Shown here piece by piece: positions 23,890-36,661 of a stretch of DNA of 43,667 nt; the first letter of the stretch is position 1; each line of letters starts with the position of its first letter. This DNA comes from Candidatus Kaiserbacteria bacterium (lineage in GTDB: Bacteria > Patescibacteriota > Minisyncoccia > Phycocordibacterales > UBA2100). Made by a program: the position numbers and the translations under genes. The stretch is from positions 1 to 43,667 of the forward strand of contig JAFAPB010000075.1 of the NCBI GenBank assembly GCA_019247335.1, in the 5' to 3' direction. A model generated the notes under the pieces. It was not told the origin of the DNA and made no database searches. It saw only the letters and a list, made by a program, of their open reading frames with translations.

Positions 23890-24033
23890 CTACTTGGCTT
23901 CCGCCTTGCCGAGGTCTTCGAAGCACGACATGCACAAATGCTTCTCCGCATTCGACCCCTCCGGCGTAAATACGATCGCGCCGCCGGACTCAAGCTCTTT
24001 CGAGCAGTTATCGCAGACGTTCTTCCCGTCCAT
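23890..24033 (-). CDS. 47-aa zinc-ribbon-like microprotein upstream of ruvC
   Basis: MDGKNVCDNCSKEL...HLCMSCFEDLGKAEAK carries two CxxC pairs. Its stop codon is 1 nt from the ruvC ATG. Confidence 0.5.
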   Translation of the reverse strand: MDGKNVCDNCSKELESGGAIVFTPEGSNAEKHLCMSCFEDLGKAEAK

Positions 24034-24103
24034 GCCAAAAGTATACACCCCAAAAGGAATGCCCGGCGGCGGCCGGGCATAGGTGGTTCGGATGCGGGCG
24101 TGT

Positions 24104-24406
24104 TCAGTACACGCAGAAGTCGCGGATGATGGCTGCCTGGGCCTCATCGGTCCAGCCCGCGAAGTCGCCCTCCGGGAGGCGGATATACGGCGTTCCCGGG
24201 ATGTTGTAGCGCGATGCGAAGCGGATGCTGCCGACGTCGACCGTCGCGTAGCTGATGCCTTGCTGCTTGAGGTACGCCTCGAGCGCGCGGCAGATGCTGC
24301 AGTCGTCGGCGCGCCAGATCGTCATCGGACTCCAGCATCGCGTCGCGGCCGCTGCATTGCCTGAAAGCGCGAGGGTAAGAGCGGTAGCGATAGTCATGGT
24401 ACGCAT
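24104..24406 (-). CDS. Exported glutaredoxin/thioredoxin-fold protein
   Basis: 100 aa with a signal-like N-terminus, active-site-like CSIC, and a Grx-like layout (..YATVDV.., ..IPGTPYI..). Confidence 0.55.
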   Translation of the reverse strand: MRTMTIATALTLALSGNAAAATRCWSPMTIWRADDCSICRALEAYLKQQGISYATVDVGSIRFASRYNIPGTPYIRLPEGDFAGWTDEAQAAIIRDFCVY

Positions 24407-24485
24407 TGGCGTACTCCTTCATTCATGAGGCTAATCGCACGATAAATCGCTACGCCGCGTTTGTATAGTCTTAGACGCGTTGGCG

Positions 24486-26918
24486 CTAATTCCCGTCGCT
24501 GCTGATGTGGAAACTGACACTTTGCGCGATATACGCGCCGGTCGCGCCGTCTTGCGCGCGCAAGTAGTAATTGCCGCTGGGGAGCGATGCTATGGGGCTG
24601 ATCGTAAGCGTTCCGGAGCCGCTGATCGCTGGGCTCGTGTAGCCAGAGAACTGCGCGCCGGTCGTGTTATTGATGAACACTACGCGCGTGTTTGCCGGCA
24701 TAAGGGTGTACGGCGCTGTCACCGTTTCGCCGCCGGGCGCGGCCGGTGAGACGCTGAGATCCGTGAAGTGCCCTCCGATGACCGTCACCGTAATTGATGC
24801 TGAAGTCGTGTGCCCTACGGCATCGGTCACAACATAGGTGACATGGTAGGTGTGCCCGCCGTCTGAAGATGTCGTATTCCCCGACCACGATCCGCTCAAT
24901 TGGTTTGCTATCCACGGATGTTGTGTCGCGTCCTCGTCGACTGTGGAGTACGAGGTTGCGCTGACAGCGTTGGTGGAAGACCATGCCACGCTTATAGGGT
25001 CGCCCACGTTCATCGTGAGATTTGTTTGGCCGTTGACGGTGAAAGTCGCGGTCGGCGCCGTATAGGTGAGGTGTATCTGCTGCTTGATGAGGTCACGATC
25101 GAGGCCGTCAGATCCGCCCCTATTGAGCGAGAAGTACAGATAAGGGTCTTGCCCTGATGTCGAGAAATTCGCGTCGGTGCTTGTTGGGTCGAGCAGGGTA
25201 GTGTAGTTCAGCGCGTCCGGAGTCGTCGTGAACGGCTTTGTCAGGAAGACGACCGGCGTACTCCAGTGTATGAGATCCTGCGAGAAGCTCAAGGCGGTAT
25301 TGCTCGCGGAGTCGAGGATTGCGACGTATGCGCCGAGATAAGTATTGTAGGTAACGCTCGTGAAGGGATCCGACGCGTAGACGGACACGTTCGGGTCGAA
25401 GAGGTATCCGCAGTCAGTTACCGAAAGCGTGCCCGACCAGCCGCTGCCGGTCCAGACCTGCCAAGAGGAACCTGCATCGAGATTCTGCGTACGCATGATG
25501 CATTCGCCACGGTTGCCGGAATTCGGCGGCGGGCTGATGTGGTAGTAAAAGGCGTAATAATATCCGTCACCTCCATGGATTATTTTGCCCGGGGAATCGC
25601 CGTAGACTGTTTGGAAGCCTTGCGCGCACGGACTCGACGAACTCCAGTTCGCCGGCACCCGCACTTTGTAGTCCGAGGGGAACGTGAAGTGAGCGCCACC
25701 GTCGGTCGATTTGGCGATATTCGTCGAGATGACGAATGCGTCCGCACCGCAGTGGTTATCGCCGACCGTCGTCGGGTACCACTCGTTGTGCGTGAGCGCG
25801 TACACATTTGTGCCATCAGTCGTATACGTGCTTACGACCCAGTTGTAATACTGCTGGTCCGCGAAATTCGTGTCCTTCGCGGATACCAATACTGAATTGC
25901 AGTCGTGTGCGATGAAACCGTTCAGCGTTGAGGAGTTGGTTCCGCGATAATTCGCGACGCCGTCGCCCGCGATAAGTGCGACGGTGCTGTTCGCAGTGCG
26001 GAACGCTGTCGCAGGCGAATCCGGAATATCGAACCCATTGATGCTTCCGTTCAAGAGACACTTATCGGTCGAATTGTTGTATACGGTATCCGCGTAGCCC
26101 GTACTTTGCACCTGCACGTTACCTGATGTGGCGCCCGTCGTGATATTCATGGGCATTGCTTGCGGCGTACGATTAATTTGCTTGTCCGGTCCGCCGCTCC
26201 CCGGATACGGATAGACGACGTACGCGTAAATCTTGTGGCTGTGGCCATTCTGCAAACTGCCCGGGAGCGTGTAGGTGAATCCGTGATTGTCGTTGCCACT
26301 CCCGATATTGAGCGCCGCGCCGAGTCCGGGCCGGTTCACATTCGCGGTCGCCGTGCCGAGATACGTGCCCGAGCCTTGCGGACCGTCCGCATAGAAGTTT
26401 ACCTGCATCGTTTGCGAGCCGTCCGCGAGATTCGCTGCCCAGCCCGACATGACGTTTTGGCTGATCCAGTCAGCCGAGCCAAGCAGATTGGGCGTTGCGA
26501 TCGCAGAAGCTGTCGTCGGCGAAGCGATCTGGTCCACTCCGCCGGCGCTTGGGTCTATGGTGTACGTATATATCGAATGCGCCTGCCCATCGTGCAGCCA
26601 AGAAGGCAGTGTGAATTGATAGCCGTGGTTGTCATTCCCATTACCGATACCGGGTAGAGCCGCGCCGAGGCCCGGCCTGTTCACATTCGCAGTCACGGCA
26701 CCGAGAAAGGTCCCTGTCCCGTAGGGGCCATTGGCATACACGTGCACCTGCAGCGTCTGCGACGGGCTCGTATAGTCCACGGCCCATCCATAGACCACAT
26801 TATTGATGACGCCGTCCGTCCGGCCTTGTACGGAATCAGCCGATGCGACGAGCGGGAATAAAAGCGCCGCGAAGGCGATGAGCGCGGCCGATAAAGAGAC
26901 CCGTGAAAGATAGTTCAT
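24486..26918 (-). CDS. Large secreted protein: N-terminal tandem repeat, BNR/Asp-box-containing central domain, C-terminal Ig-like domains
   Basis: 810 aa with a signal peptide. Two ~110-aa repeats (..GWAVDY..VHVYANGPYGTGTFLGAVTANVNRPGLGAAL..GNDNHGY / ..GWAANL..VNFYADGPQGSGTYLGTATANVNRPGLGAAL..GNDNHGF) and a STDGGAHF Asp-box. Confidence 0.8.
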   Translation of the reverse strand: MNYLSRVSLSAALIAFAALLFPLVASADSVQGRTDGVINNVVYGWAVDYTSPSQTLQVHVYANGPYGTGTFLGAVTANVNRPGLGAALPGIGNGNDNHGYQFTLPSWLHDGQAHSIYTYTIDPSAGGVDQIASPTTASAIATPNLLGSADWISQNVMSGWAANLADGSQTMQVNFYADGPQGSGTYLGTATANVNRPGLGAALNIGSGNDNHGFTYTLPGSLQNGHSHKIYAYVVYPYPGSGGPDKQINRTPQAMPMNITTGATSGNVQVQSTGYADTVYNNSTDKCLLNGSINGFDIPDSPATAFRTANSTVALIAGDGVANYRGTNSSTLNGFIAHDCNSVLVSAKDTNFADQQYYNWVVSTYTTDGTNVYALTHNEWYPTTVGDNHCGADAFVISTNIAKSTDGGAHFTFPSDYKVRVPANWSSSSPCAQGFQTVYGDSPGKIIHGGDGYYYAFYYHISPPPNSGNRGECIMRTQNLDAGSSWQVWTGSGWSGTLSVTDCGYLFDPNVSVYASDPFTSVTYNTYLGAYVAILDSASNTALSFSQDLIHWSTPVVFLTKPFTTTPDALNYTTLLDPTSTDANFSTSGQDPYLYFSLNRGGSDGLDRDLIKQQIHLTYTAPTATFTVNGQTNLTMNVGDPISVAWSSTNAVSATSYSTVDEDATQHPWIANQLSGSWSGNTTSSDGGHTYHVTYVVTDAVGHTTSASITVTVIGGHFTDLSVSPAAPGGETVTAPYTLMPANTRVVFINNTTGAQFSGYTSPAISGSGTLTISPIASLPSGNYYLRAQDGATGAYIAQSVSFHISSDGN

Positions 26919-26957
26919 ATGTCCTTATCATAAACCATCCGGCGCGAACAAAAGCGG

Positions 26958-27485
26958 TCAGGCTGCGTTTGTATAGACCTCCTCGACATCGTCGTGCCCG
27001 TCGATCTCTTCGAGAATTTCCATGAGCTTGGCATCGTCTTCCTCGGAGAGCGGTACCGTGGTCGAGGGCTCGTAGCCCTCGGCCGTTTTGGCGAATGCCC
27101 ACGCGGCAGAGCCGGGGGAGGCGAGTTCGAGTCCGTTCTCCGAGAGGAGATGTTTGATCTCCTGTGCAGTGCGATTTCTATTGTCGGTAAGCGCGTCGAT
27201 GAGGATCGCGGCGCCGCCAGGACCATACGTCTCATAGGTCACGCTCTCAAGCGCGGTGTCATTGGAGACGCCCTTCGCGACCGCGCGCTCGATCGTGTCT
27301 TTCGGCATGTTCGACTTTTTGGCGCGTTCGATCGCGGCACGCAGTCCCGGCGCGTTCACATCGCCCCCCGCTTTCTTGCTCTCGACTGAAATGCGTTTGC
27401 CGAGCTTGCCCCACAAATTGCTCTTTGCGGCATCTGCGGCACCCTTCTGCCGCTTGATCTGCGCCCATTTATTGTGTCCGGCCAT
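26958..27485 (-). CDS. yebC: YebC/PmpR-family transcriptional/translational regulator (short form)
   Basis: 175 aa from the internal ATG: MAGHNKWAQIKRQKG..., with TDNRNRT. TATACT lies 9 nt upstream of the ATG. Confidence 0.85.
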   Translation of the reverse strand: MAGHNKWAQIKRQKGAADAAKSNLWGKLGKRISVESKKAGGDVNAPGLRAAIERAKKSNMPKDTIERAVAKGVSNDTALESVTYETYGPGGAAILIDALTDNRNRTAQEIKHLLSENGLELASPGSAAWAFAKTAEGYEPSTTVPLSEEDDAKLMEILEEIDGHDDVEEVYTNAA

Positions 27486-27561
27486 AGCGCGTGCAGTATA
27501 AACCAAACGGTTATTCGAATGAACTCCTATCACGAGCGCCGGCGTATGCGAAAATAGTGTC

Positions 27562-27981
27562 ATGAAGATCCGCTACGTTGCCGCCGGGTTTGCCGTTCTT
27601 TTTTTCCTGGTGTGGATCACGACGCACGTGCCCGCGTTCAACGACGCGCGCGGGTACAACTTCGGCCTCTTCAAGATCGATCCCATCGACGACGTGGTGC
27701 ACCTCTTGACCGCGCTCATCGGATTTCTCGCCGCATGGCACGGCGCACGCTCTTCGCGCATCTTTCTCGTCGTCTTCGGCGCACTCTACGCGCTCGACGC
27801 CCTGACTGGCATGGTCTCGCAGCTCGGACTGCTCGATCTCTCGCTCATCCACAATACGCTCCTCGGTGAAACCATCCTCAATCCAAATTTCGGCATCGTG
27901 AATTGGCTCGTGAATATGCCGCATATCGTGATCTCCGCCGCGATGATCTACTCCGGCGTTTGGGGTTGGCGCCGCGGGTGA
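27562..27981 (+). CDS. Small polytopic membrane protein (DUF4383-like by recollection)
   Basis: 139 aa with four hydrophobic helices. Confidence 0.55.
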   Translation: MKIRYVAAGFAVLFFLVWITTHVPAFNDARGYNFGLFKIDPIDDVVHLLTALIGFLAAWHGARSSRIFLVVFGALYALDALTGMVSQLGLLDLSLIHNTLLGETILNPNFGIVNWLVNMPHIVISAAMIYSGVWGWRRG

Positions 27982-27982
27982 C

Positions 27983-29125
27983 ATGTATCAAGAGGGGATC
28001 ATAATACGCATCGTACGAAAGATCGCTCATGCGCTCGGCAGCCTCGCGCTCCTTGCCGTTTTTGTGAGCGCCATCATCTTCGTCATCGTCTTTACCTATA
28101 AGGATGAGGCCTGTGGCGCGGGGACATTTCCGCCGTATGTCGCGACGCCGACACCCCGCCTCCAGCTTGCTGAAGCGCAGGACTATATTCGCAGCGAAGA
28201 GACGACCTTCATCACCTTCCCCGAGTGGTACATCGTCTACAGCGCGCGCGAATACGCCGCCTACGTGAGCGACGGTAACCGGCCGAGCCATTTCCCGTAT
28301 TTCCGATCGATCGCGCAGTTCTGGTGCGGCTACGGCGCGGTGCATTCGTATACGAAAGTCGCGTATCCCAAGGACTTTTACGGTAATCTCGAAATTTTTA
28401 CGATCGGTGCGAGCTTTTCGGTACAGAATCTCCTGCAGGGCGTATACGAAAATACCATCGGTCGCGTGAGCGAATTCTTTGCATTCGACGAAACGACGCC
28501 GGAGGATGTCTTTGCCCAAAAAACAGCCGTTGATTACGCGGCATTTCTCGATGTAACGCCGTGGTATCGCTATCCCTTCTTCGGCAAAATCGACGAGCTC
28601 TGGAAAACCGTGCCCGCTCGCGGACCGCACATGGTCCGCAAATGGGAACGGCGCTTCTACCTCACCGCGCTCTATAGCGTTGAGGGCCTCTGGAGCAAAG
28701 TGATCGCGAAGGCGACGGGCGATATCTACGCGCCCGCGACGGTCCAGGAAAAAATGCTAGTCGCGGCGCCGCTCCCGCCCACGCTCGCGAGCGATACGCG
28801 CATTCGTATCGACAAAGATCTCGGCGACGACACTGCGATTATCATCGTGCCGCGCTATCAGGAATTCACTGACATCGTCGAGAAATTCGCAGCCGCACAT
28901 GCGCCGATCCTCGATATCGCCGGTACGCGTCAGATACTGACGACCGCATTTTCTCCCGCGGCGATGCATTATGATCTCCCGGGGACGCTGCTGTTCACGG
29001 AGCAGGTCCTCACGGATCCTGCACGAGAGCGGCTTGGCATCGTCGTACCGGTCAGCGACCTTGAGACATGGGTGCGCGCGGCGTCTTCGAGCGGTCTCAC
29101 CATCGAACATATCTATGATTTCTAA
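27983..29125 (+). CDS. Membrane-anchored hypothetical protein
   Basis: 380 aa with an N-terminal TM (LGSLALLAVFVSAIIFVIVF) and protein-like composition. Confidence 0.65.
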   Translation: MYQEGIIIRIVRKIAHALGSLALLAVFVSAIIFVIVFTYKDEACGAGTFPPYVATPTPRLQLAEAQDYIRSEETTFITFPEWYIVYSAREYAAYVSDGNRPSHFPYFRSIAQFWCGYGAVHSYTKVAYPKDFYGNLEIFTIGASFSVQNLLQGVYENTIGRVSEFFAFDETTPEDVFAQKTAVDYAAFLDVTPWYRYPFFGKIDELWKTVPARGPHMVRKWERRFYLTALYSVEGLWSKVIAKATGDIYAPATVQEKMLVAAPLPPTLASDTRIRIDKDLGDDTAIIIVPRYQEFTDIVEKFAAAHAPILDIAGTRQILTTAFSPAAMHYDLPGTLLFTEQVLTDPARERLGIVVPVSDLETWVRAASSSGLTIEHIYDF

Positions 29126-30143
29126 AATCCTCCGCTGGTTTTTGTACGCGCTCCTCGCGACCCTTGTCGCACTCGCACTCCTTGGAGAGTTCTTTTATCT
29201 CGCCGCAGAGCGGCGGGAAATCGCCGACAATCATACTGCTGCGCCCGCGTACGGCCGCTTCGTGAAAGCGGGCGACGTGAATCTCTACATTCAGGAATGG
29301 GGACCGTCGACCGGCACGCCGATCGTGCTTGTGCACGCGGCCGGTGGCTGGAGCGGTGTTTGGCAGACAACGGGCGAGGCGCTCGCCGCGCATGGCTATC
29401 ACGTGATCGCGCCGGACATGCCGCCGCTCGGATTTTCGGATCGGCCGGACTCGCCGCGCTATTCGCGTGCCGATCAAGCGGCGCGGCTCGTCGCGCTTCT
29501 CGATGCGCTCAAGATACCGCGCGCCGTTTTTGTGGGGCATTCATTCGGCGCTCGCGCGGTCGCGGAGGTCGCGATTAATAATCCCGATCGCGTCTCCGGC
29601 ATTGTCTTCGTCGACGCGGCGCTCGGCCTCCAGAGTACGAGCTCGCCGCTTCTCGCCGATATCCTCGCGCCGAAAATAATACGGCGCGCGATCACGGCGG
29701 CGACGCTCTCGAATCCCGCATTTACTAAAACGCTCCTCGATAAATTTGTGGCAAATCCCGACACCGCAACTCCGGAGTGGGTGAGTATCTACCAGGCGGC
29801 ACTCAATGTGAAAGGAACAACGAACGCAACCGCGGATTGGCTGCCAACGCTCGTCGCCGAGCAGGGCCAGTTCAAGAGCAAGGATCCGGCAAATTATCGC
29901 GCGATCAAAGCGCCGACTCTGATCCTGTGGGGCGAGGCGGATAGCGTGACGCCGATTTCGCAAGGCAGATTCCTCGAATCGCTTATCAAAGGCGCGCAGT
30001 TCCAGAGTATTCCGGCCGTCGGCCACCTGCCACCGATCGAAGTCACGAAAGAATTCGACGACGCGCTCCTGAAGTTCCTCGATACGCACAAAACGCTTCT
30101 CGCCAAAGGCGCCGCCTGCGCGCCCGGCGTCATGTGCAGCTGA
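29115..30143 (+). CDS. Membrane-anchored alpha/beta-fold hydrolase
   Basis: Internal ATG gives MISKILRWFLYALLATLVALALL. Contains HAAGGW, the nucleophile elbow GHSFGA and a C-terminal VGHLPP. Confidence 0.8.
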   Translation: MISKILRWFLYALLATLVALALLGEFFYLAAERREIADNHTAAPAYGRFVKAGDVNLYIQEWGPSTGTPIVLVHAAGGWSGVWQTTGEALAAHGYHVIAPDMPPLGFSDRPDSPRYSRADQAARLVALLDALKIPRAVFVGHSFGARAVAEVAINNPDRVSGIVFVDAALGLQSTSSPLLADILAPKIIRRAITAATLSNPAFTKTLLDKFVANPDTATPEWVSIYQAALNVKGTTNATADWLPTLVAEQGQFKSKDPANYRAIKAPTLILWGEADSVTPISQGRFLESLIKGAQFQSIPAVGHLPPIEVTKEFDDALLKFLDTHKTLLAKGAACAPGVMCS

Positions 30144-31736
30144 TCACGCGCCGTACGTCTCGTACCACGTGTTCGTAAAAAGATTCTGCGGGTCGATCGC
30201 TTTTTTGTACGAGAAAAATGCGTCGATATTCGGATATGCCGCCTCCAATTGCGCCTTCGAATAGTAGAGCTGATACGGCAGGAAAAATTTGCCGCCCTCC
30301 TTGTGCGCCGCATCGATCAGCTCCTCCGTTACTTTTTTCATCTTCGCATTGCCCGCATTGTCGGTTTTTTGATTCAAATACAAGACGACCGAGAACGCGT
30401 CCTGCGGCGCGTAGTTGAGCGCGATATTTTCTTTGTGCACGACGCGGATCGAGACGTTCAGTACGTTCGCATTATTTTTTTGGAAGATCGTCTTCATGTC
30501 AGCGATAAATGGGAGGATGTTCGCGCGCGGGATGAAATATTCGTGCAGGATGTCGGTATCATCGACCAGATCATTCTTCAGATACGGCACGCTGTCGTGC
30601 ATGGGCTCGTTGCGCGAGACGAGGCAGCCCTCGCCGCTTTTCTGCGCGTCGTTGCGCGAGATCTCACAGCTCTCTAGTTTCGGCTCGATATATTTTTCGC
30701 TCCACCACTTCAAGGTCGCGGGGATAGGGCCGAGCTTTGCGAGGTTGATGGTGAGGCGCCGCAGCGGGATCGAAGAAACTTCGTGCAACGGAGGCGATTT
30801 GAGGGGATCGAGATCGGTTTTTGTGTAGGTGTAGAGGATGGCCTCATCTAATAGAGAGCTCGGCGCGGTCGAGAGATGCGCATAGAAGAGCCCGATATCG
30901 GGTTTTTTCTCAATTTGCGCCCACGCGGCAGGGAAATCGTTCGTCTGGATCGTCTGGCGGCCTGATTGATAGATCACATTGTCGACCACGTCGATCTTGG
31001 CATCGAGAATGACGCCGAAAAGCCCGTACCCGCCGACGATGTGCCGGAAGAGCTCCGCATTTTCGCTGGGCGAGACGGTCGTGATCTCGCCCGAGGGGAG
31101 CATGACACGCATCGAGCGAATGGTGTCGGCGACCGAGCCGGCCTGGTGATCCATGCCATGCGCGTTGACCGAGATCGAGCCGCCGACGGTGAAGATGTCG
31201 GTCGATTGCATCGCCTTCACCGCAAAGCGCGGATGCAGATAATTCTGGATGTCGTGCCACGTCGCGCCGCTCTGCACGGTCAGGATTTTCGTATCGGCAT
31301 TCACGCTCATCGATTTGTAGTCGCGCATGTCGACGACGAGCGCATCTTTGGCGAATGCCTGGCCGCCCTGGCTGTGCCGCACGCCCGCGATCGATACATG
31401 CAGTCCGTGCGCCTTGGCGAACGAAAGCGCGCGCGAAATATCCGCCTCGCTCTTCACGCTCACCATTCCGTAGATCGCCGTACGATCGAGACAGCTTGAA
31501 TCGTTGATGGTGCCGCCGCGCTGCTCCCAATCGAGCGCGGGATCGAACGCCGTGTTTTTCATATCCGGCACCGCCTCGCCGGGGTTGAGCGGGGGACAGT
31601 CCTTCTCGCCGACGGGCCCGGCGGCATAGTAAATGACCTTCTTGATGAGGAATCCGATGATCAAAAGGAGGATCGCGAGCGTGATCACGAGCTTCCGCGA
31701 AAATCGGCGCGCCTTGCGGACCAGCTTTTGAGCCAT
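30144..31736 (-). CDS. Membrane-anchored FAD-binding (PCMH-type) oxidoreductase
   Basis: N-terminal TM, then an FAD_binding_4-like region (ISIAGVRHSQGGQ, GGSISVNAHG). The ATG at 31736 has TACAAT 6 nt upstream; an alternative GTG is at 31772. Confidence 0.8.
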   Translation of the reverse strand: MAQKLVRKARRFSRKLVITLAILLLIIGFLIKKVIYYAAGPVGEKDCPPLNPGEAVPDMKNTAFDPALDWEQRGGTINDSSCLDRTAIYGMVSVKSEADISRALSFAKAHGLHVSIAGVRHSQGGQAFAKDALVVDMRDYKSMSVNADTKILTVQSGATWHDIQNYLHPRFAVKAMQSTDIFTVGGSISVNAHGMDHQAGSVADTIRSMRVMLPSGEITTVSPSENAELFRHIVGGYGLFGVILDAKIDVVDNVIYQSGRQTIQTNDFPAAWAQIEKKPDIGLFYAHLSTAPSSLLDEAILYTYTKTDLDPLKSPPLHEVSSIPLRRLTINLAKLGPIPATLKWWSEKYIEPKLESCEISRNDAQKSGEGCLVSRNEPMHDSVPYLKNDLVDDTDILHEYFIPRANILPFIADMKTIFQKNNANVLNVSIRVVHKENIALNYAPQDAFSVVLYLNQKTDNAGNAKMKKVTEELIDAAHKEGGKFFLPYQLYYSKAQLEAAYPNIDAFFSYKKAIDPQNLFTNTWYETYGA

Positions 31737-31850
31737 GTATTTATTGTATCGCCTATCCACAGTTCTATACACGACTAATCCCCGCGATATCCACCGTTTT
31801 AGACGATTTTTGTAAAACGGCTGTCAAGTGAAGATGAGTACTATTTGAAG

Positions 31851-32083
31851 TCCGACCACTTTACCGTGCGTCGGCGGGATACGGGACGGGCGAAAGCCCC
31901 GACAGGATCCCAATTCCCTGAGTCTACGGAGCCATGCGCCCGGGACATTGCGGGAATCGTCGGTCGGAGCATTGGATTTGAATGCACCAGCGGCGGGAGG
32001 AGATGACATCAAGCACCGTTGCGCCTTCGAAGACTCATAACGATCGAAAGCAGAAGCCGCCTCTTGGGGCGGCTTCTGTCTTT
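31851..32083 (+). ncRNA. Structured-RNA candidate, family member 1 (unknown family)
   Basis: Closing helix TCCGACC (31851-57) / GGTCGGA (31962-68). Box CTTTACCGTGCGTCGG (31859-74). GAAA-tetraloop hairpin at 31888-99. Conserved 27-nt block at 31949-75. 11-bp hairpin at 32051-78. No credible ORF. Confidence 0.45.
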
Positions 32084-32092
32084 ACCGTGCGT
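32080..32092 (+). repeat. Orphan copy of the 13-nt RNA box CTTTACCGTGCGT
   Basis: Identical 13-mers at 31859-31871, 32080-32092 and 32251-32263. This copy sits directly after the first hairpin and marks the left edge of the AT-rich block. Confidence 0.7.
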
Positions 32093-32132
32093 TACTTCGC
32101 ATTGTATAGACGTATTTTTCGCAAAAGCGAGT

Positions 32133-32168
32133 TATGCACATATTTGTGCACAGCTCTATGCACATGAT
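32133..32168. promoter_or_regulatory. Three 12-nt-phased TGCACA sites (operator/iteron-like)
   Basis: TATGCACATATT | TGTGCACAGCTC | TATGCACATGAT. The centre unit contains the perfect palindrome TGTGCACA. Confidence 0.35.
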
Positions 32169-32243
32169 TTCCAAACGTTATCCCCGAAAAAATCGTTTTC
32201 GCGCAAAATGCGCGCGCAAATCGCACTTTTATACTCTTCCTAT

Positions 32244-32486
32244 CGATGCGCTTTACCGTGCGTCGGTCGGTCCAAGGGTCCCGCAGCAATGCGACTTCCT
32301 AAGGATCAGTTCCCAGGATCTAATGCAAGGCGAAAGCCTTGCGGACGGTGCGGGAATAGGCGGCGAGAGCATCGGGTTCGTGTGGGCGAAGCGGGGAGAT
32401 CATATCAAGACGACTCGCGCTCACGAAACGAAACATAATCGCCGTAAACACAAAAGCCTCCCTCGCGGAGGCTTTTGTGTTGTGGG
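32244..32486 (+). ncRNA. Structured-RNA candidate, family member 2 (unknown family)
   Basis: TATACT at 32230-35. Closing helix CGATGC (32244-49) / GCATCG (32369-74). The same box at 32251-66. GCAA-tetraloop hairpin at 32282-93. Second GAAA hairpin at 32275-92 of the next line block (GCAAGGC-GAAA-GCCTTGC). 27-nt block at 32349-75. 14-bp hairpin at 32448-80 followed by TTTTGTGTTGT. Confidence 0.45.
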
Positions 32487-32535
32487 CGCTTAACTCTTTG
32501 CATGTCGCCATAAAATATATGATGATATCGTAACT

Positions 32536-33564
32536 ATGGCTGTTAATAACCTAGCCATGCTCGAAGAATATAAGAGTTTGCAGCTTCTATATGCTGACTT
32601 CGCTGAACGCCTGAAATCAATAGCAAAAGATATTCTTGACCTGAACGAGATAAATATCGTGTCGATTGAAGCTCGTGCAAAATCCACAGACAGTCTAAAA
32701 AGCAAAATCGAAGCACGAAGTGAAACGTTACAAGAACTAGTTGATATTAAGGATCTCGCGGGCGTTAGAGTTATTGCGTTGACCCGAGCTGATGCCGAAA
32801 AGATTGAAGAACAGCTCAGTGCTTGCTTTGATGTTGAGGAGAGTACGGACGAGGGTGCGCATGAGCTCGACAAAATAGGCTACAGATCAAAGCACCTCGT
32901 AGTCTCGTTACCAAATGAACGGTGTGCGCTACCCGAGTATAAAAAATTTAAAGGACTTAAAGCTGAACTACAAATCAGAACGGTACTTGAGCATGCATGG
33001 GCACAAATCGGCCATGATCAGGTTTACAAGCAGAGCTCAGTATTGCCGGAAGAAATACGTCGCGATTTTAATCTACTCGCTGGTCTATTAGAAATAGCCG
33101 ATAAACAATTCAGCCGACTAACCGGTGAAATATCGCGACAAGAAAAAAATGTTGCTCAAAAAACACGGCAGGGCGACCTTAATATCCCGATCGACTCCAT
33201 ATCATTACGCGGTTTCCTAAGCGAAAAATTCAAGGGACTTTCAAATCTTGATCCCCGATTTGGCCCGCAAGATAACATGGCAGAGGAAATCATCTCGGAA
33301 CTCAAGGCCATGGGCATAAACACTCTCCAGGATTTGAATTCCGTAATCCCAGAGGACTACAAGGAGAAAGCGCAGGCGTTAAAAGAATATAATAATTTTT
33401 GTGGAATAACTCGAGATATCATGATCATTCACGACGCAAAAAAATATTTTGAAGGTCCGTGGAAAAATAAATGGGCCTGGGGTAGAGATGAGGGACACAT
33501 ACTGTCCTTCTATGGTATTGATCGCAATGAATTAGCTAAGAAATATCAGGATCTTGAGTCTTAA
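32536..33564 (+). CDS. Stand-alone RelA/SpoT-homologue nucleotide pyrophosphokinase (small alarmone synthetase-like; toxSAS/CapRel-like candidate)
   Basis: 342 aa. Ordered synthetase motifs ARAKSTDSLKSK, DLAGVRV, GYRSKH and ELQIRTVLEHAWAQIGHDQVYK. No HD hydrolase domain. ~150-aa C-terminal extension. Markedly lower GC than the flanks (38% in the first 60 nt, counted by hand). Confidence 0.85.
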   Translation: MAVNNLAMLEEYKSLQLLYADFAERLKSIAKDILDLNEINIVSIEARAKSTDSLKSKIEARSETLQELVDIKDLAGVRVIALTRADAEKIEEQLSACFDVEESTDEGAHELDKIGYRSKHLVVSLPNERCALPEYKKFKGLKAELQIRTVLEHAWAQIGHDQVYKQSSVLPEEIRRDFNLLAGLLEIADKQFSRLTGEISRQEKNVAQKTRQGDLNIPIDSISLRGFLSEKFKGLSNLDPRFGPQDNMAEEIISELKAMGINTLQDLNSVIPEDYKEKAQALKEYNNFCGITRDIMIIHDAKKYFEGPWKNKWAWGRDEGHILSFYGIDRNELAKKYQDLES

Positions 33565-33582
33565 AAATCTTGATCTTCAAGA

Positions 33583-33660
33583 CTAAAGAAGCTTAGGCTT
33601 ATCTTCAGGTACTGAAATGCCGATGTGTTCGTAGTCTTTTTGGTGACAATACGGCCGCAT
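33583..33660 (-). pseudogene. Frameshifted remnant of a ruvB 3' end
   Basis: 33619-33656 aligns to ruvB 34667-34705 with 34 of 39 columns identical and one 1-nt indel. The minus-strand reading retains ..YEHIG...LL-stop, as in the real RuvB C-terminus (..KKGYEHIGAEPPKGQTQLL). Confidence 0.6.
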
Positions 33661-33669
33661 AAATAGTGC

Positions 33670-33695
33670 GCCCGGCGAGGGTGGCCTCGCCGGGC
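33670..33695 (-). terminator. Hairpin downstream of the HExxH gene
   Basis: GCCCGGCGAGG-GTGG-CCTCGCCGGGC, an 11-bp stem. The minus-strand tail GCACTATTTAT is only moderately T-rich. Confidence 0.45.
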
Positions 33696-33701
33696 TGGTT
33701 G

Positions 33702-34586
33702 CTACGCGACCGCTTCGATCGCGGCTGCGACTTCGGCCTCAATGTCGCAGGTGAGCAGTGCGGCTGCGAGCATCGAGAGTTCATCGCGGCCAGCGGCGCC
33801 GATGGATTGCATGATCGACTCGATCTTCGCGGCGCGGAAGCGTTCGACCCACGTGCGCTCCATCAGGATGTCCGTCGCGTCGAAGTACGCGCCATACAGA
33901 TCCTTCCAGACCTGCGCGTGGTCGTCTTCGATGTCGCCGAGCCGCTTCACGAGCGCACGCGCGAGCCATACGGCTTTGCGATACAGCGCCCACTCGGCGT
34001 CGGCCTCGATCTGCTTGAAGTACTCGGCGATCAGATCAGGATCGGCGAACGTCGGATCGAAGTTCAGATACTCGCGCATCACCTCGCGGGCGAAGCACTC
34101 GGTGAAACCTTCGCTCAAGAAGAAGTTCGATCCGGCGATCCAGGGTTCTTCCGGCTGGAACCATTTCGGGAAGTCCATGCCGATGTACTTGTAGAAGCCG
34201 CAGATCTCCATGGTGAACTTCACTTCGATGCCGTGCACCCGCGTGGTGCGTGGCTCAAAGGTCCGCGTCTTTGCGATCTTGTGCACCCGCTCGTGGATCA
34301 CGAGATTGAGCACGATGAGATCATGCGGCGCGCCCTGTTCGACGCGTTCGTCGATGCCGGGAGTCAGCAGCCGGTACCCGTCTGGTTGGGCATAGCCCGA
34401 GATCAGCCGCCCCGTGCGTTTGTCGATCACTCGCTGTGTATCGAGATAGGCGCGCTCGCTCGGAAAACGTCCGAAGTCGAGCTCGTAGCGCCGCTCGACG
34501 ACGTGGTACGCACGGAGGAGCTTGTCCTCGTCGATGCGCTCAAGAACTGCGCGCAGCCTGTCGAGACTACTTAGAGGTCCAGTCAT
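33702..34586 (-). CDS. Hypothetical protein with an HExxH (HERVH) motif
   Basis: 294 aa from the ATG at 34586 (GGGGG 6 nt upstream); an alternative TTG is at 34622. Balanced amino-acid composition, unlike the antisense 33666-34574 ORF. Motif LVIHERVHKI. Confidence 0.6.
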   Translation of the reverse strand: MTGPLSSLDRLRAVLERIDEDKLLRAYHVVERRYELDFGRFPSERAYLDTQRVIDKRTGRLISGYAQPDGYRLLTPGIDERVEQGAPHDLIVLNLVIHERVHKIAKTRTFEPRTTRVHGIEVKFTMEICGFYKYIGMDFPKWFQPEEPWIAGSNFFLSEGFTECFAREVMREYLNFDPTFADPDLIAEYFKQIEADAEWALYRKAVWLARALVKRLGDIEDDHAQVWKDLYGAYFDATDILMERTWVERFRAAKIESIMQSIGAAGRDELSMLAAALLTCDIEAEVAAAIEAVA

Positions 34587-34630
34587 TGATACCCCCACAT
34601 TGCTGCGCGGGATTATGCGCAATTATCGAT

Positions 34631-35635
34631 TTAAAGCAATTGCGTCTGACCTTTCGGCGGCTCGGCGCCGATGTGCTCGTAGCCCTTTTTGGTGACGATT
34701 CGGCCCCGCGGCGTGCGTTCGAGGAGGCCCACCTGCATAAGGTACGGCTCGTGGACTTCTTCGATAGTCGCTTCTTCTTCGGAGAGCGATGCGGCGATCG
34801 TCTTTAAACCGACGGGGCCGCCATTAAATTTCTCGACGAGGATCGTGAGAATGTCGCGGTCGATCTGATTGAGCCCGATCTCATCGATCTCGAGAAGCGC
34901 GAGCGCTTTTTTCACGGTCTTGATGTCGAGCTTCTCGCTGTTGACCTCCGCAAAGTCGCGCGCGCGTTTCAATAGATAATTCGCGGTGCGCGGCGTCGCG
35001 CGCGAGCGGCGCGAAATTTCCATGAGCGAGTCCTTGTCAATATCGATGCCGAGAATTTTTGCGGAGCGGCGGAGTATCTCCGCGATCTCTTCAACGCTGT
35101 AGTACTGCAATCGGAACGTGCCGCCCGAAAATCGCGAGCGAAGCGGCGCAGAGAGGAGCGAGATACGCGTCGTCGCGGCGATGAGCGTGAAGGGCGGGAG
35201 TTCGAGCTGCACGGTGCGCGCGCTCGGCCCTTTGCCGATCACGATATCAAGTACGCCTGCTTCCATCGCGGGGTAGAGGACCTCTTCGATCGTGCGATTC
35301 AAGCGATGGATCTCGTCGATAAAGAGCACGTCACCCGGCGTGAGGTTGGTGAGGATGGAGGCGAGGTCGCCCACGCGCTCGACGGCTGGCCCTGAGGTGG
35401 TGCGGAGATTGGCGCCAAGCTCTTTGGCGATGAGGTGCGAGAGCGTCGTTTTGCCCAATCCTGGAGGGCCGTAGAGCAGCACGTGCTCGGGCTGGTGATT
35501 CCTGCCTTTGGCTGCGGTGAGGAGAATACGAAGGTTCTCTTTAATAGAAGGTTGGCCGATGTAGTCGGCCCACTCGGTCGGGCGAAGGGCTTGATCGAGG
35601 CTGCGGGGGCTTTTTTCTATCGAGGGTTCGGTCAT
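34631..35635 (-). CDS. ruvB: Holliday junction branch-migration ATPase RuvB
   Basis: 334 aa from the internal ATG (MTEPSIEKSPRSLDQALRPTEWADYIGQ). Walker A GPPGLGKTTL, Walker B IDEIHRL. Confidence 0.95.
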   Translation of the reverse strand: MTEPSIEKSPRSLDQALRPTEWADYIGQPSIKENLRILLTAAKGRNHQPEHVLLYGPPGLGKTTLSHLIAKELGANLRTTSGPAVERVGDLASILTNLTPGDVLFIDEIHRLNRTIEEVLYPAMEAGVLDIVIGKGPSARTVQLELPPFTLIAATTRISLLSAPLRSRFSGGTFRLQYYSVEEIAEILRRSAKILGIDIDKDSLMEISRRSRATPRTANYLLKRARDFAEVNSEKLDIKTVKKALALLEIDEIGLNQIDRDILTILVEKFNGGPVGLKTIAASLSEEEATIEEVHEPYLMQVGLLERTPRGRIVTKKGYEHIGAEPPKGQTQLL

Positions 35636-35678
35636 AAAAACGGGCTTTTTGGCACGCCGGGGCGGGGCAAAAAGGCGC

Positions 35679-35706
35679 TTGACAATTAGGTATAATATGC
35701 TATACT
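35679..35706 (+). promoter_or_regulatory. Near-consensus sigma70-type promoter facing away from ruvB
   Basis: TTGACA (35679-84), 16 nt, TATACT (35701-06). The -10 context TATACTCT..CCTA is also present upstream of RNA member 2. Confidence 0.55.
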
Positions 35707-35711
35707 CTCTA

Positions 35712-35938
35712 CCTAGAAAGCGGGTAATGCCGCTTTTTCTATTTGAGAGACGCACAGCTTCGGGCGATCGCGACTTTTCCGAGGACGGCGGCGGGATGCC
35801 GCCTCGTGCAGCATTGCTGCCCCTATCCTTAGGATCTAGTAGCAACTTTTCCAACAAAGGATCGCCCGAAAGTGTGCGCCTCCAGCTAATTCGAAACATA
35901 ACACCCGATTGCAGGCACGCAATCGGGTTTTGTGGTTT
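35712..35938 (+). ncRNA. Structured-RNA candidate, family member 3 (unknown family)
   Basis: 11-bp closing helix TTCGGGCGATC (35759-69) / GATCGCCCGAA (35860-70). Box variant CTTTTCCGAGGACGGCGGCGGGAT. Hairpin GCAGC-ATT-GCTGC (35808-20). AGGATC at 35831-36. CATAA. Terminator CCCGATTGC/GCAATCGGG (35904-27) followed by TTTTGTGGTTT. Confidence 0.5.
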
Positions 35939-35949
35939 AAAAATTCGTC

Positions 35950-35987
35950 AATAAAAGAAAAGCGGGCGCCGGCAGAGCCGTCGCCCG
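35950..35987 (-). terminator. Intrinsic terminator of the 35994-36272 gene
   Basis: CGGGCG (35963-68) / CGCCCG (35982-87) with an inner CGG/CCG extension, followed on the minus strand by TTTTCTTTTATT. Confidence 0.6.
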
Positions 35988-35993
35988 TCTTTG

Positions 35994-36272
35994 TCACCGA
36001 GGCCTCCGCTCTCGGTGATCTTGCAGGAATGCCGCCACGATGTATGCGGCGACGCCGAGAAGAACGCCGAAGCCGAGCGCCATGCCGATCTCGGCGATGA
36101 GTTTCCGCGCGACTATCGGCGTGATGTCGGTGACATCACAGCAGACGAGCAAGGTCGACCCGCTCGTGAGCAACATCTCGACCTTCGCCACCGATCGCCA
36201 GAGCGAGAAGTTCTTGGCGACTGTGCTCGTGAGCATCGCGGTGACGAGCGCAAGCGCTATGAGCGTGTCCAT
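35994..36272 (-). CDS. Small membrane protein, unknown function
   Basis: 92 aa with 2-3 hydrophobic helices. A strong SD, GAGGAGG (36280-86), lies 7 nt upstream of the ATG. Confidence 0.6.
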   Translation of the reverse strand: MDTLIALALVTAMLTSTVAKNFSLWRSVAKVEMLLTSGSTLLVCCDVTDITPIVARKLIAEIGMALGFGVLLGVAAYIVAAFLQDHRERRPR

Positions 36273-36328
36273 GGCACTTCCTCCTCACGAGGCCGCGTAT
36301 GTTCCCACCAGCGATCGCGTAGTGCCCC

Positions 36329-36661
36329 CTAGAGGAAGATCGAATCGCTCGGTGCGCGCGCGAATCCGGAGGCCACGGCTTCCTCGAACGTGATGCCGAG
36401 CCGCCGCATCGCTTCGTGGAACGATATGCCGCGGCCTTCCTTGATCGCCGTCTCGACGGCATCGCGACTTTCGGTGTCGAGCGCGTATGCTGTTTCGAGC
36501 GTGGCGATAACGCACCATTTCGGGTTAGACACGCGGTATGGCATGCGATACAAGATCGGCTTCCAAAGCGGTCGCTTGATCGCCAAGTGCGCGTTGATGC
36601 CGTGAACGATCCGCTGTTCGGCCAGATCGTAGTCAGCCTTGGGAATCCATCTCTCGGTCAT
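36329..36661 (-). CDS. Hypothetical protein
   Basis: 110 aa with SD-like GGGGAGAA upstream and protein-like composition. Confidence 0.55.
   Translation of the reverse strand: MTERWIPKADYDLAEQRIVHGINAHLAIKRPLWKPILYRMPYRVSNPKWCVIATLETAYALDTESRDAVETAIKEGRGISFHEAMRRLGITFEEAVASGFARAPSDSIFL

What the first reader, a model, noticed from the sequence alone, without database searches (positions are those of the whole stretch)
32536..33564. Stand-alone RelA/SpoT-homologue with a C-terminal extension and no partner ORF: candidate toxSAS or fused CapRel-like defence protein
The ORF has the full synthetase-type motif series (ARAKSTDSLKSK, DLAGVRV, GYRSKH, ELQIRTVLEHAWAQIGHDQVYK). It has no HD hydrolase, TGS or ACT regions, and it carries about 150 further residues with no motif I recognise. 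Stand-alone SAS enzymes on foreign DNA include toxSAS toxins, some of which pyrophosphorylate tRNA, and CapRel, in which a C-terminal domain acts as a built-in antitoxin and phage sensor (established knowledge). No small adjacent protein antitoxin gene is visible here. Upstream is a structured RNA followed by a terminator, and downstream the next feature is convergent. The control element would therefore have to be the C-terminal domain or the RNA.
Basis: partly seen in the sequence, partly recalled or inferred. Interest (0 to 1): 0.65.

Follow-up and report, generated by a model that had tools for sequence, protein, structure and literature searches.

The report
Lone alarmone-synthetase gene with new tail domain
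A tiny-genome (Kaiserbacteria) bacterium has picked up a single foreign gene for a RelA/SpoT-type pyrophosphate-transferring enzyme fused to a previously undescribed C-terminal domain. The gene belongs to a large, uncharacterised family often carried by prophages and plasmids. It is not a CapRel and not a housekeeping RelQ/RelP.

Summary
Window 32536-33564 (+) is an intact 342-aa ORF with a complete RelA/SpoT synthetase domain and no HD, TGS or ACT region. It carries a separately folding C-terminal domain (CTD) of about 130 aa that matches no family or known fold. It has no partner gene.

The gene sits in a 42% GC block of about 1.1 kb within a 58% GC core chromosome near dnaA, dnaN and ruvB. 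In the nearest relative found, the upstream RNA gene lies directly beside ruvB and there is no such block. The RNA is therefore resident and is not a dedicated antitoxin.

The protein belongs to a large family of fusions of the same length, about 990 clusters at E<=1e-30. Relatives occur in 79 viral contigs, at two cargo sites of P2-like prophages, and on plasmids. No neighbouring gene is conserved across lineages.

The CapRel reading fails as membership. Only the catalytic domain aligns, the CTD is unrelated to the pseudo-zinc-finger, there is no YxxY motif, and the protein is acidic (pI 5.3 against 9.5).

The RelQ/RelP reading also fails: 62 bits against a 320-bit cut-off, and a separate clade in the tree.

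The best reading is a self-contained, CTD-gated alarmone synthetase of an accessory, probably conflict-related family. Function is untested.

The parts
32536..33564 (+). SAS-CTD gene, 342 aa, 39 kDa, pI 5.3
   Evidence: ORF; Pfam RelA_SpoT; AF2 model pLDDT 88.7, pTM 0.70; mass and pI
32536..33168 (+). N-terminal helix, SYNTH catalytic domain and long linker helix (residues 1-211). Catalytic D73, G-loop Y116 and E144 are intact.
   Evidence: Alignment to RelQ/RelP structures; Foldseek against RelQ 5dec, TM-score normalised to the target 0.81; invariant columns; helix 172-211
33169..33561 (+). C-terminal domain (residues 212-342). Compact and mostly helical, with an ELxxxGIxTLxxL helix-hairpin-helix-like motif at about residues 255-270. 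No known fold.
   Evidence: AF2 on the CTD alone, pLDDT 91, pTM 0.86; no Foldseek hit in PDB or BFVD; only sub-threshold Pfam hits to HhH-type families; consensus
32497..33580 (.). Low-GC (about 42%) inserted block that holds only the SAS gene. It has 39 nt upstream and about 16 nt downstream of the ORF.
   Evidence: Composition. Homology to relative L015 stops at 32496 and resumes in the ruvB-end remnant. The right-hand boundary at about 33580 is my own reading of the sequence.
32490..32516 (+). Weak promoter candidate TTAACT-15 nt-TAAAAT, 20 nt before the ATG. There is no Shine-Dalgarno sequence.
   Evidence: Read from the sequence. The consensus scan reports no + strand promoter.
32235..32492 (+). 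Resident structured RNA gene with terminator. It is a neighbour, not part of the SAS unit.
   Evidence: Fold z = -5.35; 72% identical homologue in L015 beside ruvB without the SAS gene; no Rfam family
33619..33658 (-). Degenerate duplicate of the ruvB 3' end (the true copy is at 34667-34705). It marks the right edge of the SAS block and the left edge of a second insertion.
   Evidence: Direct repeats D4 and D5 with a 1-nt indel; alignment to L015 ruvB

Best explanation
The gene encodes a self-contained, regulated small alarmone synthetase of an uncharacterised, horizontally mobile family. The N-terminal SYNTH domain is catalytically competent. It most likely transfers pyrophosphate from ATP to a purine nucleotide, giving (p)ppGpp or (p)ppApp, rather than to tRNA. 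A long helix links it to a private C-terminal domain, which acts as the built-in regulatory or sensor module. That module would keep the enzyme off until a trigger is bound, possibly a phage component or nucleic acid recognised through the helix-hairpin-helix-like motif. Once on, alarmone synthesis and ATP/GTP consumption would arrest growth, as in an abortive-infection or stress-arrest response. Shown here: the ORF, the intact active site, the two-domain architecture, the foreign origin, the absence of any partner, the mobility of the family and the modularity of the CTD. Inferred: the substrate, the gating role of the CTD, toxicity and any defence role.
For: All SYNTH residues are intact and conserved across the family. 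The H-x3-YK acceptor-side motif of RelQ/RelP and the long RSHs is retained, and CapRel lacks it. The protein is acidic (pI 5.27, net -11), and 89% of 244 family members have pI below 7. tRNA-modifying CapRel-SJ46 has pI 9.48, net +18. The published argument is that tRNA-targeting toxSAS need basic surfaces while RelP/RelQ are acidic there (bioRxiv 10.1101/2021.04.30.441581; PMC11782079). The CTD is an independent, confident fold. Across the family the NTD stays at 37-40% identity while the CTD falls to 12-17%, which indicates swapped or diversifying tails on one enzyme core. Foreign origin: 42% GC against 58%, and the gene is absent from the RNA-ruvB spacer of relative L015. The gene has lower GC than its flanks in all 6 homologue loci tested. 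Mobile carriage: PHROG 9640 at E 5e-56; 79 IMG/VR contigs; 14 related contigs in which, where the neighbours were scanned (L121), it lies between P2 gpV/W/J and gpS/gpR; a P2-like prophage tail-fibre/gpU site next to a putative AbiC; plasmids and a Vibrio filamentous phage. No neighbour family is shared across lineages. No stand-alone CTD homologue was found. One homologue lies next to an HD_4 small alarmone hydrolase. There are published precedents for a SYNTH + helical linker + CTD effector in phage defence: GRel/Pag1B makes pppGpp (bioRxiv 10.64898/2026.04.06.716658), and CapRel is a fused system (PMC9712102).
Against: There are no experimental data for any family member. The window's own clade of 11 sequences contains no viral member. 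Its loci look like housekeeping neighbourhoods, for example rpsI-grpE, gyrA and ddl. The window is core chromosome with no defence island. The AF2 inter-domain geometry is only moderately confident (pTM 0.70; linker pLDDT 63-82) and no PAE was available, so CTD docking on the active site is not shown. Published work states that no sequence signature separates tRNA-using from nucleotide-using toxSAS, so the substrate call rests on charge and one motif. The HhH-like motif has only sub-threshold support. No transcription data exist, since only two DNA runs hold the sequence.
Confidence: 0.45

Rival explanations
1. It is a benign, horizontally acquired signalling SAS. It would give a reduced CPR cell a (p)ppGpp stress response, with the CTD serving for oligomerisation or for binding a cellular cue. 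It would be neither a toxin nor a defence protein.
For: The SYNTH domain is closest in sequence and fold to RelQ/RelP and the acceptor motif is retained. The clade-mates sit among housekeeping genes, one between rpsI and grpE-dnaK-dnaJ on the same strand. No defence genes lie nearby. The protein is acidic like RelP/RelQ.
Against: It fails the RelQ equivalog cut-off (62 bits against 320) and lies in a separate starred clade. It is absent from the syntenic site of the nearest relative. Its composition is foreign here and in every homologue locus tested. Sister clades are prophage cargo. The CTD varies far more than the enzyme core.
Confidence: 0.25
2. It is a CapRel-type fused toxin-antitoxin. 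The CTD would block the ATP site until a phage protein binds, and the enzyme would then pyrophosphorylate tRNA CCA ends and stop translation.
For: It is a single ORF of similar length (342 aa against 373 aa) with no partner. Foldseek aligns CapRel 7ztb over about 340 columns at E 1e-6. The QHAWA-type motif is shared with CapRel. Relatives are carried on prophages.
Against: The TM-score is only 0.40 with rmsd 18 A. hhalign covers SYNTH only. The CTD profile scores 0.2% probability against CapRel, and the CTD model finds no PDB match, CapRel included. There is no YxxY motif. The pI is 5.3 against 9.5. PDB profile E-values are 1e-26 for RelQ and 3.7e-8 for CapRel.
Confidence: 0.12
3. It is an effector that needs an unlinked activator or antitoxin encoded elsewhere in the genome. 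This would be PANGU-like (a nucleoid protein binds the CTD and breaks an inactive tetramer), or a distant hydrolase would neutralise it.
For: The architecture matches GRel/Pag1B: SYNTH, helical linker, then CTD, with a mildly acidic CTD (net -5, pI 5.05). Some relatives have strongly acidic CTDs of -16 to -21. One relative neighbours an HD_4 hydrolase, and NUDIX genes lie within 1-2 kb in two loci.
Against: No NdpA/YejK, HD_4 or NUDIX protein turned up among the window's 35 predicted proteins. The alignment-wide Pfam list was cut at 25 of 39 families, and the ten proteins scanned individually showed none. None was seen next to the 12 annotated homologue loci, apart from those noted. CTD charge is not consistently acidic across the family. 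The rest of the genome could not be searched.
Confidence: 0.1
4. It is a silent or decaying passenger gene with no function in this host.
For: It has foreign codon usage (GC3 0.40), no clear promoter or Shine-Dalgarno sequence, and no RNA data. A gene caller missed it.
Against: The ORF is full length with every conserved residue intact. It is identical in a second public assembly of the same DNA and in a short contig of another metagenome.
Confidence: 0.06

Closest known systems
GRel / Pag1B, effector of type I PANGU (bioRxiv 10.64898/2026.04.06.716658)
   Same: A RelA/SpoT SYNTH domain, an alpha-helical linker and a C-terminal domain of otherwise unknown fold, in a protein of about 37-39 kDa. 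It is a nucleotide (pppGpp) producing anti-phage effector and lacks the basic tRNA pocket.
   Different: Pag1B works with an adjacent YejK/NdpA-type nucleoid protein. No such gene was seen in the window or in the homologue loci examined. Sequence membership in GRel could not be tested because no reference sequence was at hand.
CapRel-SJ46, fused toxSAS toxin-antitoxin (PMC9712102; PDB 7ZTB)
   Same: A single-ORF SAS with a C-terminal regulatory extension, no partner gene, prophage carriage, and a variable C-terminus on a conserved enzyme.
   Different: Only the catalytic core is homologous (23% identity). The CTD here is helical and is not a pseudo-zinc-finger. There is no YxxY motif. This protein is acidic whereas CapRel is basic. 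The likely substrate differs: nucleotide here, tRNA for CapRel.
RelQ / RelP (YjbM, YwaC) housekeeping small alarmone synthetases (PDB 5DEC, 5F2V, 6FGK, 6EWZ)
   Same: These are the closest catalytic domains by sequence (profile E 1e-26) and by fold (TM-score normalised to the target 0.8). They share the acceptor-side motif and an acidic character.
   Different: RelQ and RelP are about 210 aa with no CTD. This protein fails the equivalog cut-off, forms a separate clade, has foreign composition and shows no conserved synteny.
PHROG 9640 and PADLOC candidate PDC-S33
   Same: PHROG 9640 (365-position profile, unknown function) matches residues 8-293 at E 5e-56, so phage-borne members of the same family exist. 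PDC-S33 is a 349-position candidate defence protein that matches the SYNTH part.
   Different: Neither has a known function. PDC-S33 matches only 125 profile positions, all within the catalytic domain.

Membership tests
RSH superfamily, synthetase (SYNTH) domain | Pfam PF04607 above the gathering score, with catalytic Asp, G-loop Tyr and catalytic Glu | tested here: met
   62 bits against a cut-off of 27. D73, Y116 and E144 align to the RelQ catalytic residues and are invariant in the family.
RelQ (YjbM) housekeeping SAS | NCBIfam equivalog NF053588 above its cut-off | tested here: not met
   62.2 bits against a cut-off of 320
RelQ/RelP housekeeping SAS | Falls inside the RelQ/RelP clade, and has the ~210-aa single-domain architecture | tested here: not met
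   RelQ and RelP form their own starred clade on a long branch. The window lies in a different starred clade of 11. It carries an extra 130-aa domain.
RelQ/RelP housekeeping SAS | Conserved synteny and vertical inheritance in relatives | tested here: not met
   Absent next to ruvB in L014 and L015 (RuvB 84-86% identical). L015 has the RNA directly beside ruvB. GC is 42% against 58%.
Fused CapRel toxSAS | C-terminal pseudo-zinc-finger antitoxin domain homologous to ATcapRel/Gp30 | tested here: not met
   CTD profile against CapRel-SJ46: probability 0.2%. CTD model against the PDB: best E 5, with CapRel not among the hits.
Fused CapRel toxSAS | Conserved YxxY motif that occludes the ATP site | tested here: not met
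   No YxxY anywhere in the 342 aa
Fused CapRel toxSAS | toxSYNTH of the CapRel/PhRel lineage | tested here: inconclusive
   Homologous at superfamily level only: hhalign probability 96.7%, 23% identity, residues 43-207. The PDB profile gives E 3.7e-8 against 1e-26 for RelQ. CapRel is a very long branch in the tree.
Fused CapRel toxSAS | Basic surface for tRNA binding; tRNA pyrophosphorylation | tested here: not met
   pI 5.27, net -11, against CapRel pI 9.48, net +18. Enzymatic activity cannot be tested with these tools.
Bicistronic toxSAS TA (FaRel2, PhRel2, PhRel, FaRel) | Adjacent, often overlapping antitoxin gene conserved with the toxin | tested here: not met
   No credible adjacent ORF. 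No neighbour family is shared across 83 homologue loci.
PANGU type I (Pag1A + GRel/Pag1B) | Adjacent YejK/NdpA-type nucleoid-associated protein gene | tested here: not met
   No NA37/NdpA hit appears in the Pfam results returned for the window's predicted proteins (the alignment-wide list was cut at 25 of 39 families; ten proteins were scanned individually). None appears in the Pfam-annotated homologue loci.
PANGU type I (Pag1A + GRel/Pag1B) | SYNTH + helical linker + C-terminal acidic DNA-mimic domain | tested here: inconclusive
   The architecture matches. The CTD is only mildly acidic here (net -5), and across the family it ranges from +8 to -21. Surface electrostatics could not be computed.
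GRel SAS subfamily | Sequence membership (subfamily HMM of Jimmy et al. 2020) | not testable with these tools
   The subfamily HMMs and datasets are not held. PDB 9UFP did not appear among the hits.
PHROG 9640 | Significant match over most of the profile | tested here: met
   E 5.2e-56, protein residues 8-293 on profile positions 7-306 of 365

The most novel reading that the evidence does not exclude
The family is a new class of single-chain, alarmone-based abortive-infection or stress switch. A previously undescribed helical domain with a helix-hairpin-helix-like motif would directly sense a trigger, such as phage nucleic acid or protein, and unlock a RelQ-like (p)ppGpp/(p)ppApp synthetase with no partner protein. 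Its spread into Kaiserbacteria and Nomurabacteria would be one of the few immune or growth-arrest effectors known in CPR bacteria.
Probability: 0.2. Interest if true: 0.7.

Novelty: new variant of a known kind. Interest (0 to 1): 0.5.

Why it matters
Two regulated SAS effectors with C-terminal modules have been worked out: CapRel, which has a built-in antitoxin and targets tRNA, and GRel/Pag1B, which has an external activator and makes pppGpp. This family would be a third solution: a RelQ-like core with its own new-fold tail and no partner. It is abundant (about 990 clusters at 50% identity) and recurrent at prophage cargo sites, yet it has no assigned function. It is also a clean example of a one-gene horizontal acquisition in a CPR genome, a group whose defence and stress-signalling repertoire is poorly known. 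Automated gene calling missed the gene in a public assembly, so such genes may be under-counted.

Tried and rejected
1. Upstream RNA as antitoxin or control element: rejected. A 72% identical copy lies beside ruvB in relative L015, which has no SAS gene. No Rfam family matches; the only hits are terminator look-alikes.

2. A tRNA or tmRNA integration site: none found.

3. A stand-alone CTD homologue, which would indicate a split TA ancestor. The region search found nothing. The CTD-profile search returned only the window's own miscalled 95-aa fragment. Sensitivity is limited by the word index.

4. Pseudogene suspicion raised by that 95-aa call: rejected. The contig is 100% identical to the window over 12,335 nt.

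5. Fold match for the CTD: none in the PDB or BFVD. AlphaFold DB was not available.

6. Population polymorphism or an empty insertion site in reads: no joints were seen. Only assembled contigs of two DNA runs were available.

7. Enrichment at prophage ends: weak, with 32% in the outer tenth of the contig against 20% expected. I did not rely on it.

8. Subfamily naming through the supplements of Jimmy et al. 2020: the supplements are not held. "PDC-S33" appears in no paper.

10. Sigma-70 promoter scan: no + strand site was reported. Only a near-match with a 15-nt spacer exists.
Full report
**Observation**

Window 32536-33564 (+) is an intact ATG-initiated ORF of 342 aa, 39 kDa, pI 5.27. Pfam finds only RelA_SpoT (PF04607, residues 47-167, E 8e-17) and no HD, TGS or ACT region.

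In a 43-sequence family alignment R47, K49, D73, G115, Y116, S118, H120, E144, Q146, R148, H160 and K165 are invariant, and Y164 is at least 90% conserved. These residues align with the ATP-binding, Mg2+ (Asp), G-loop (Tyr) and catalytic (Glu) positions of RelQ and RelP.

AlphaFold2 with that alignment gives pLDDT 88.7 and pTM 0.70. The model has an N-terminal helix, the SYNTH alpha/beta core, a long helix at residues 172-211, and then a mostly helical C-terminal domain. Predicted alone, residues 205-342 fold with pLDDT 91 and pTM 0.86. The CTD is therefore an autonomous domain and not a disordered tail.

**Local context**

The gene is 42.4% GC (GC3 0.40) in a 58.2% GC window whose neighbouring genes have GC3 of 0.70-0.79.

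RuvB identifies the organism as a Kaiserbacteria-type CPR bacterium. The best matches, at 84-86% identity, are L014 and L015, and L015 is titled Candidatus Kaiserbacteria.

In L015 a 72% identical homologue of the structured RNA at window ~32235-32492 lies directly after ruvB. None of the SAS gene, the 306-aa downstream gene, the FAD oxidase or the hydrolase is within 6 kb of ruvB in L015.

Homology with L015 stops at window 32496 and resumes in a degenerate copy of the ruvB 3' end at 33619-33658. That copy is a direct repeat of 34667-34705 with a 1-nt indel.

Relative to L015, two blocks of about 1 kb therefore lie between the RNA gene and ruvB:
- The low-GC block at ~32497-33580 holds only the SAS gene, with 39 nt upstream and about 16 nt downstream. 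The right-hand boundary is my own reading of the sequence.
- A host-like-GC block holds a 306-aa gene of unknown family and is bracketed by the ruvB-end repeats.

No integrase, transposase, tRNA or tmRNA gene is associated with either block.

The window as a whole is core, origin-proximal chromosome. It carries uvrD, ksgA, dnaA, dnaN, yidC, tsaE, ruvC, yebC, ruvB, a penicillin-binding protein and a pilus ATPase, and has no recognised defence island. The only PADLOC hits are generic UvrD-helicase matches and a weak mad8 match.

**The upstream RNA**

The RNA is real and strongly structured (z = -5.35) and ends in a terminator hairpin. It matches no Rfam family. It is resident DNA in a relative that has no SAS gene, so it is not a dedicated control element for the gene. 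This agrees with an earlier follow-up note on this genome, and I checked the point independently.

**The family**

An exhaustive HMMER scan finds 7,704 representatives at E<=1e-3 and 988 at E<=1e-30. Most of the 150 listed are 340-380 aa and match over nearly the whole length. The best identity to the window protein is only 48-49%.

The window protein itself is missing from the protein collection. In the identical 12.3-kb ENA contig the ORF was not called, and three fragments were called instead.

In a SYNTH-domain tree the window falls in a starred clade of 11 sequences (SH-aLRT 99). That clade includes a Candidatus Nomurabacteria protein.

Across the wider family the N-terminal part stays at 37-40% identity to the window protein, while the CTD drops to 12-17%. 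At least three CTD types are visible. One enzyme core thus carries diverged or exchanged tails.

**Genomic contexts of relatives**

Twelve loci with gene annotation show no conserved neighbour. A local clustering of 1,747 neighbouring ORFs from 83 loci finds only lineage-specific synteny.

The gene has lower GC than its flanks in all six loci tested, by 3 to 16 points.

Carriage on mobile elements is frequent:
- PHROG 9640, E 5e-56.
- 79 IMG/VR contigs.
- 14 related contigs share synteny; in L121, where the neighbours were scanned, the gene lies on the opposite strand between P2-type gpV/gpW/gpJ and gpS/gpR.
- A Providencia P2-like prophage, where it lies between the tail-fibre assembly gene and gpU, next to a putative AbiC.
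- A B. cereus megaplasmid and other plasmids.
- A Vibrio filamentous phage.

Other neighbourhoods have a defence or mobile flavour, with PIN_12 plus a type I RM methylase, or a Schlafen-like gene plus IS1595. One Paenibacillus homologue is convergent with an HD_4 small alarmone hydrolase.

The window's own clade has no viral member in my sample, and its loci look like housekeeping neighbourhoods.

**Comparison with known SAS types**

*RelQ/RelP.* These are the best PDB matches by sequence (E 1e-13 for the single sequence, 1e-26 for the profile) and by fold (Foldseek TM-score normalised to the target of about 0.8), but only for the catalytic half. The NCBIfam YjbM equivalog scores 62 bits against a cut-off of 320. 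RelQ and RelP form their own clade. Membership is rejected.

*CapRel-SJ46.* I fetched it from phage SJ46.
- The family profile aligns with residues 75-249 of CapRel only (query residues 43-207, 23% identity, probability 96.7%).
- The CTD profile has no similarity to CapRel (probability 0.2%).
- The confident CTD model finds nothing in the PDB (best E 5) or BFVD (best E 2.2).
- The whole-model Foldseek alignment to 7ZTB has a TM-score of 0.40 and rmsd of 18 A.
- There is no YxxY motif.
- The charge is opposite: pI 5.27, net -11, against pI 9.48, net +18. Of 244 family members, 89% are acidic.

Membership in CapRel is rejected. A CapRel-like logic, with a built-in regulator, remains possible.

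*GRel/Pag1B of PANGU.* A 2026 preprint describes a toxSAS with a SYNTH domain, a helical linker and a CTD of unknown fold. It is inert as a tetramer and is activated by an adjacent YejK/NdpA-type nucleoid protein to make pppGpp. This is the closest architectural analogue. However, no NdpA-type gene was seen in the window or in the annotated homologue loci. The window-wide Pfam list was cut at 25 of 39 families, and ten further proteins were scanned individually. The CTD here is only mildly acidic. Sequence membership could not be tested.

*PADLOC.* The candidate PDC-S33 matches only the catalytic domain, in all 43 family members.

**Likely mechanism**

Shown:
- A competent pyrophosphokinase active site.
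- An autonomous C-terminal domain joined to it by a long helix.
- No partner gene.
- Horizontal origin.
- A family-wide pattern of a conserved core with a variable tail.

Inferred:
- The acceptor is a purine nucleotide. The H-x3-YK motif of nucleotide-using RSHs is retained and CapRel lacks it. The protein is also acidic. Published work links tRNA use to basic surfaces, and alarmone synthesis to a basic acceptor pocket on otherwise acidic RelP/RelQ. The same literature warns that no clean sequence signature exists, so this step is the weakest.
- The CTD gates activity, either by docking on the enzyme or by controlling oligomerisation. It responds to a trigger.
- Its most conserved stretch, E-L-x3-G-I-x-T-L-x2-L-x3-I-P, looks like a helix-hairpin-helix. 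It draws only sub-threshold Pfam hits to HhH-type families: RAD51D_N at E 0.14, DUF4332 at 0.17, Cdd1 at 0.14 and RecG_wedge at 3e-4 in one member. Nucleic-acid binding is a lead and not a result.

The outcome of activation would be alarmone synthesis with ATP/GTP drain, followed by growth arrest.

I put 0.45 on this overall reading. The defence-specific part is somewhat lower.

**Rivals**

| Rival | Confidence |
|---|---|
| Benign acquired signalling SAS | 0.25 |
| True CapRel-like tRNA toxin | 0.12 |
| Effector needing an unlinked partner | 0.10 |
| Silent passenger | 0.06 |

**Limits**

- The whole-genome tools were shut. I could not ask whether this genome has other RSH, hydrolase or NdpA genes.
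- No PAE or coordinates were returned, so autoinhibitory docking could not be examined.
- No RNA runs hold the locus.
- The two DNA runs show the insertion, with no empty-site variant.

**Verdict**

The CapRel label, the tRNA-toxin expectation and the RNA-control idea are not supported.

I class it as a new variant of a known kind, namely a SAS effector with a regulatory tail. Interest is moderate.

Noticed in passing
window 33619-33658 and 34667-34705; gene 33702-34622 (-): A 306-aa gene with host-like GC (61%), no Pfam, NCBIfam or PADLOC family and an HExxH-like motif sits between ruvB and a frameshifted 38-nt duplicate of the ruvB 3' end. It is absent next to ruvB in relatives L014 and L015. 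It looks like a second, separate one-gene insertion that brought or regenerated the ruvB terminus.
   Followed up: partly
L096 (ENA contig k141_356006) = window 23998-36332: In a public assembly 100% identical to the window, the gene caller did not call the 342-aa SAS ORF. It called 41-, 58- and 95-aa fragments instead. Low-GC foreign genes in high-GC CPR genomes may be systematically missed.
   Followed up: yes
window 31851-32492 and L015 7027-7289: The structured RNA upstream (fold z = -5.35) has a partial second copy about 400 nt upstream (36-nt repeat at 31943 and 32343; 16-nt repeat CTTTACCGTGCGTCGG at 31859, 32080 and 32251) and a homologue in a Kaiserbacteria relative. It has no Rfam family.
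   Followed up: partly
L099 7157-7702 (Paenibacillus catalpae): A family member (P0026, strongly acidic CTD) is convergent with a 181-aa HD_4/HD protein, that is, a small alarmone hydrolase. This could be a SAS/SAH pair.
   Followed up: no
L001 8296-8847; L004 6939-7433: NUDIX hydrolase genes lie 1-2 kb downstream of two of the closest homologues. This may be coincidence or a nucleotide-clearing partner.
   Followed up: no
L123 4774-4971; also L124, L125, L167, L174: In one prophage lineage a conserved 65-81-aa ORF lies immediately upstream of the SAS homologue on the same strand. In L123 it overlaps the SAS start by 4 nt, a TA-like arrangement that the window lacks.
   Followed up: partly
L102 4850-6004: In a Candidatus Angelobacter contig a 384-aa gene with no Pfam family overlaps the start of the SAS homologue (CTD type b) by 4 nt. 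A Schlafen-like gene and IS1595 are nearby.
   Followed up: no
window 34631-35899 (-): The longest ruvB ORF carries an N-terminal extension of about 90 aa before the RuvB_N domain (which starts at residue 105). The public gene call uses a shorter 334-aa product, so the true start is probably internal.
   Followed up: no
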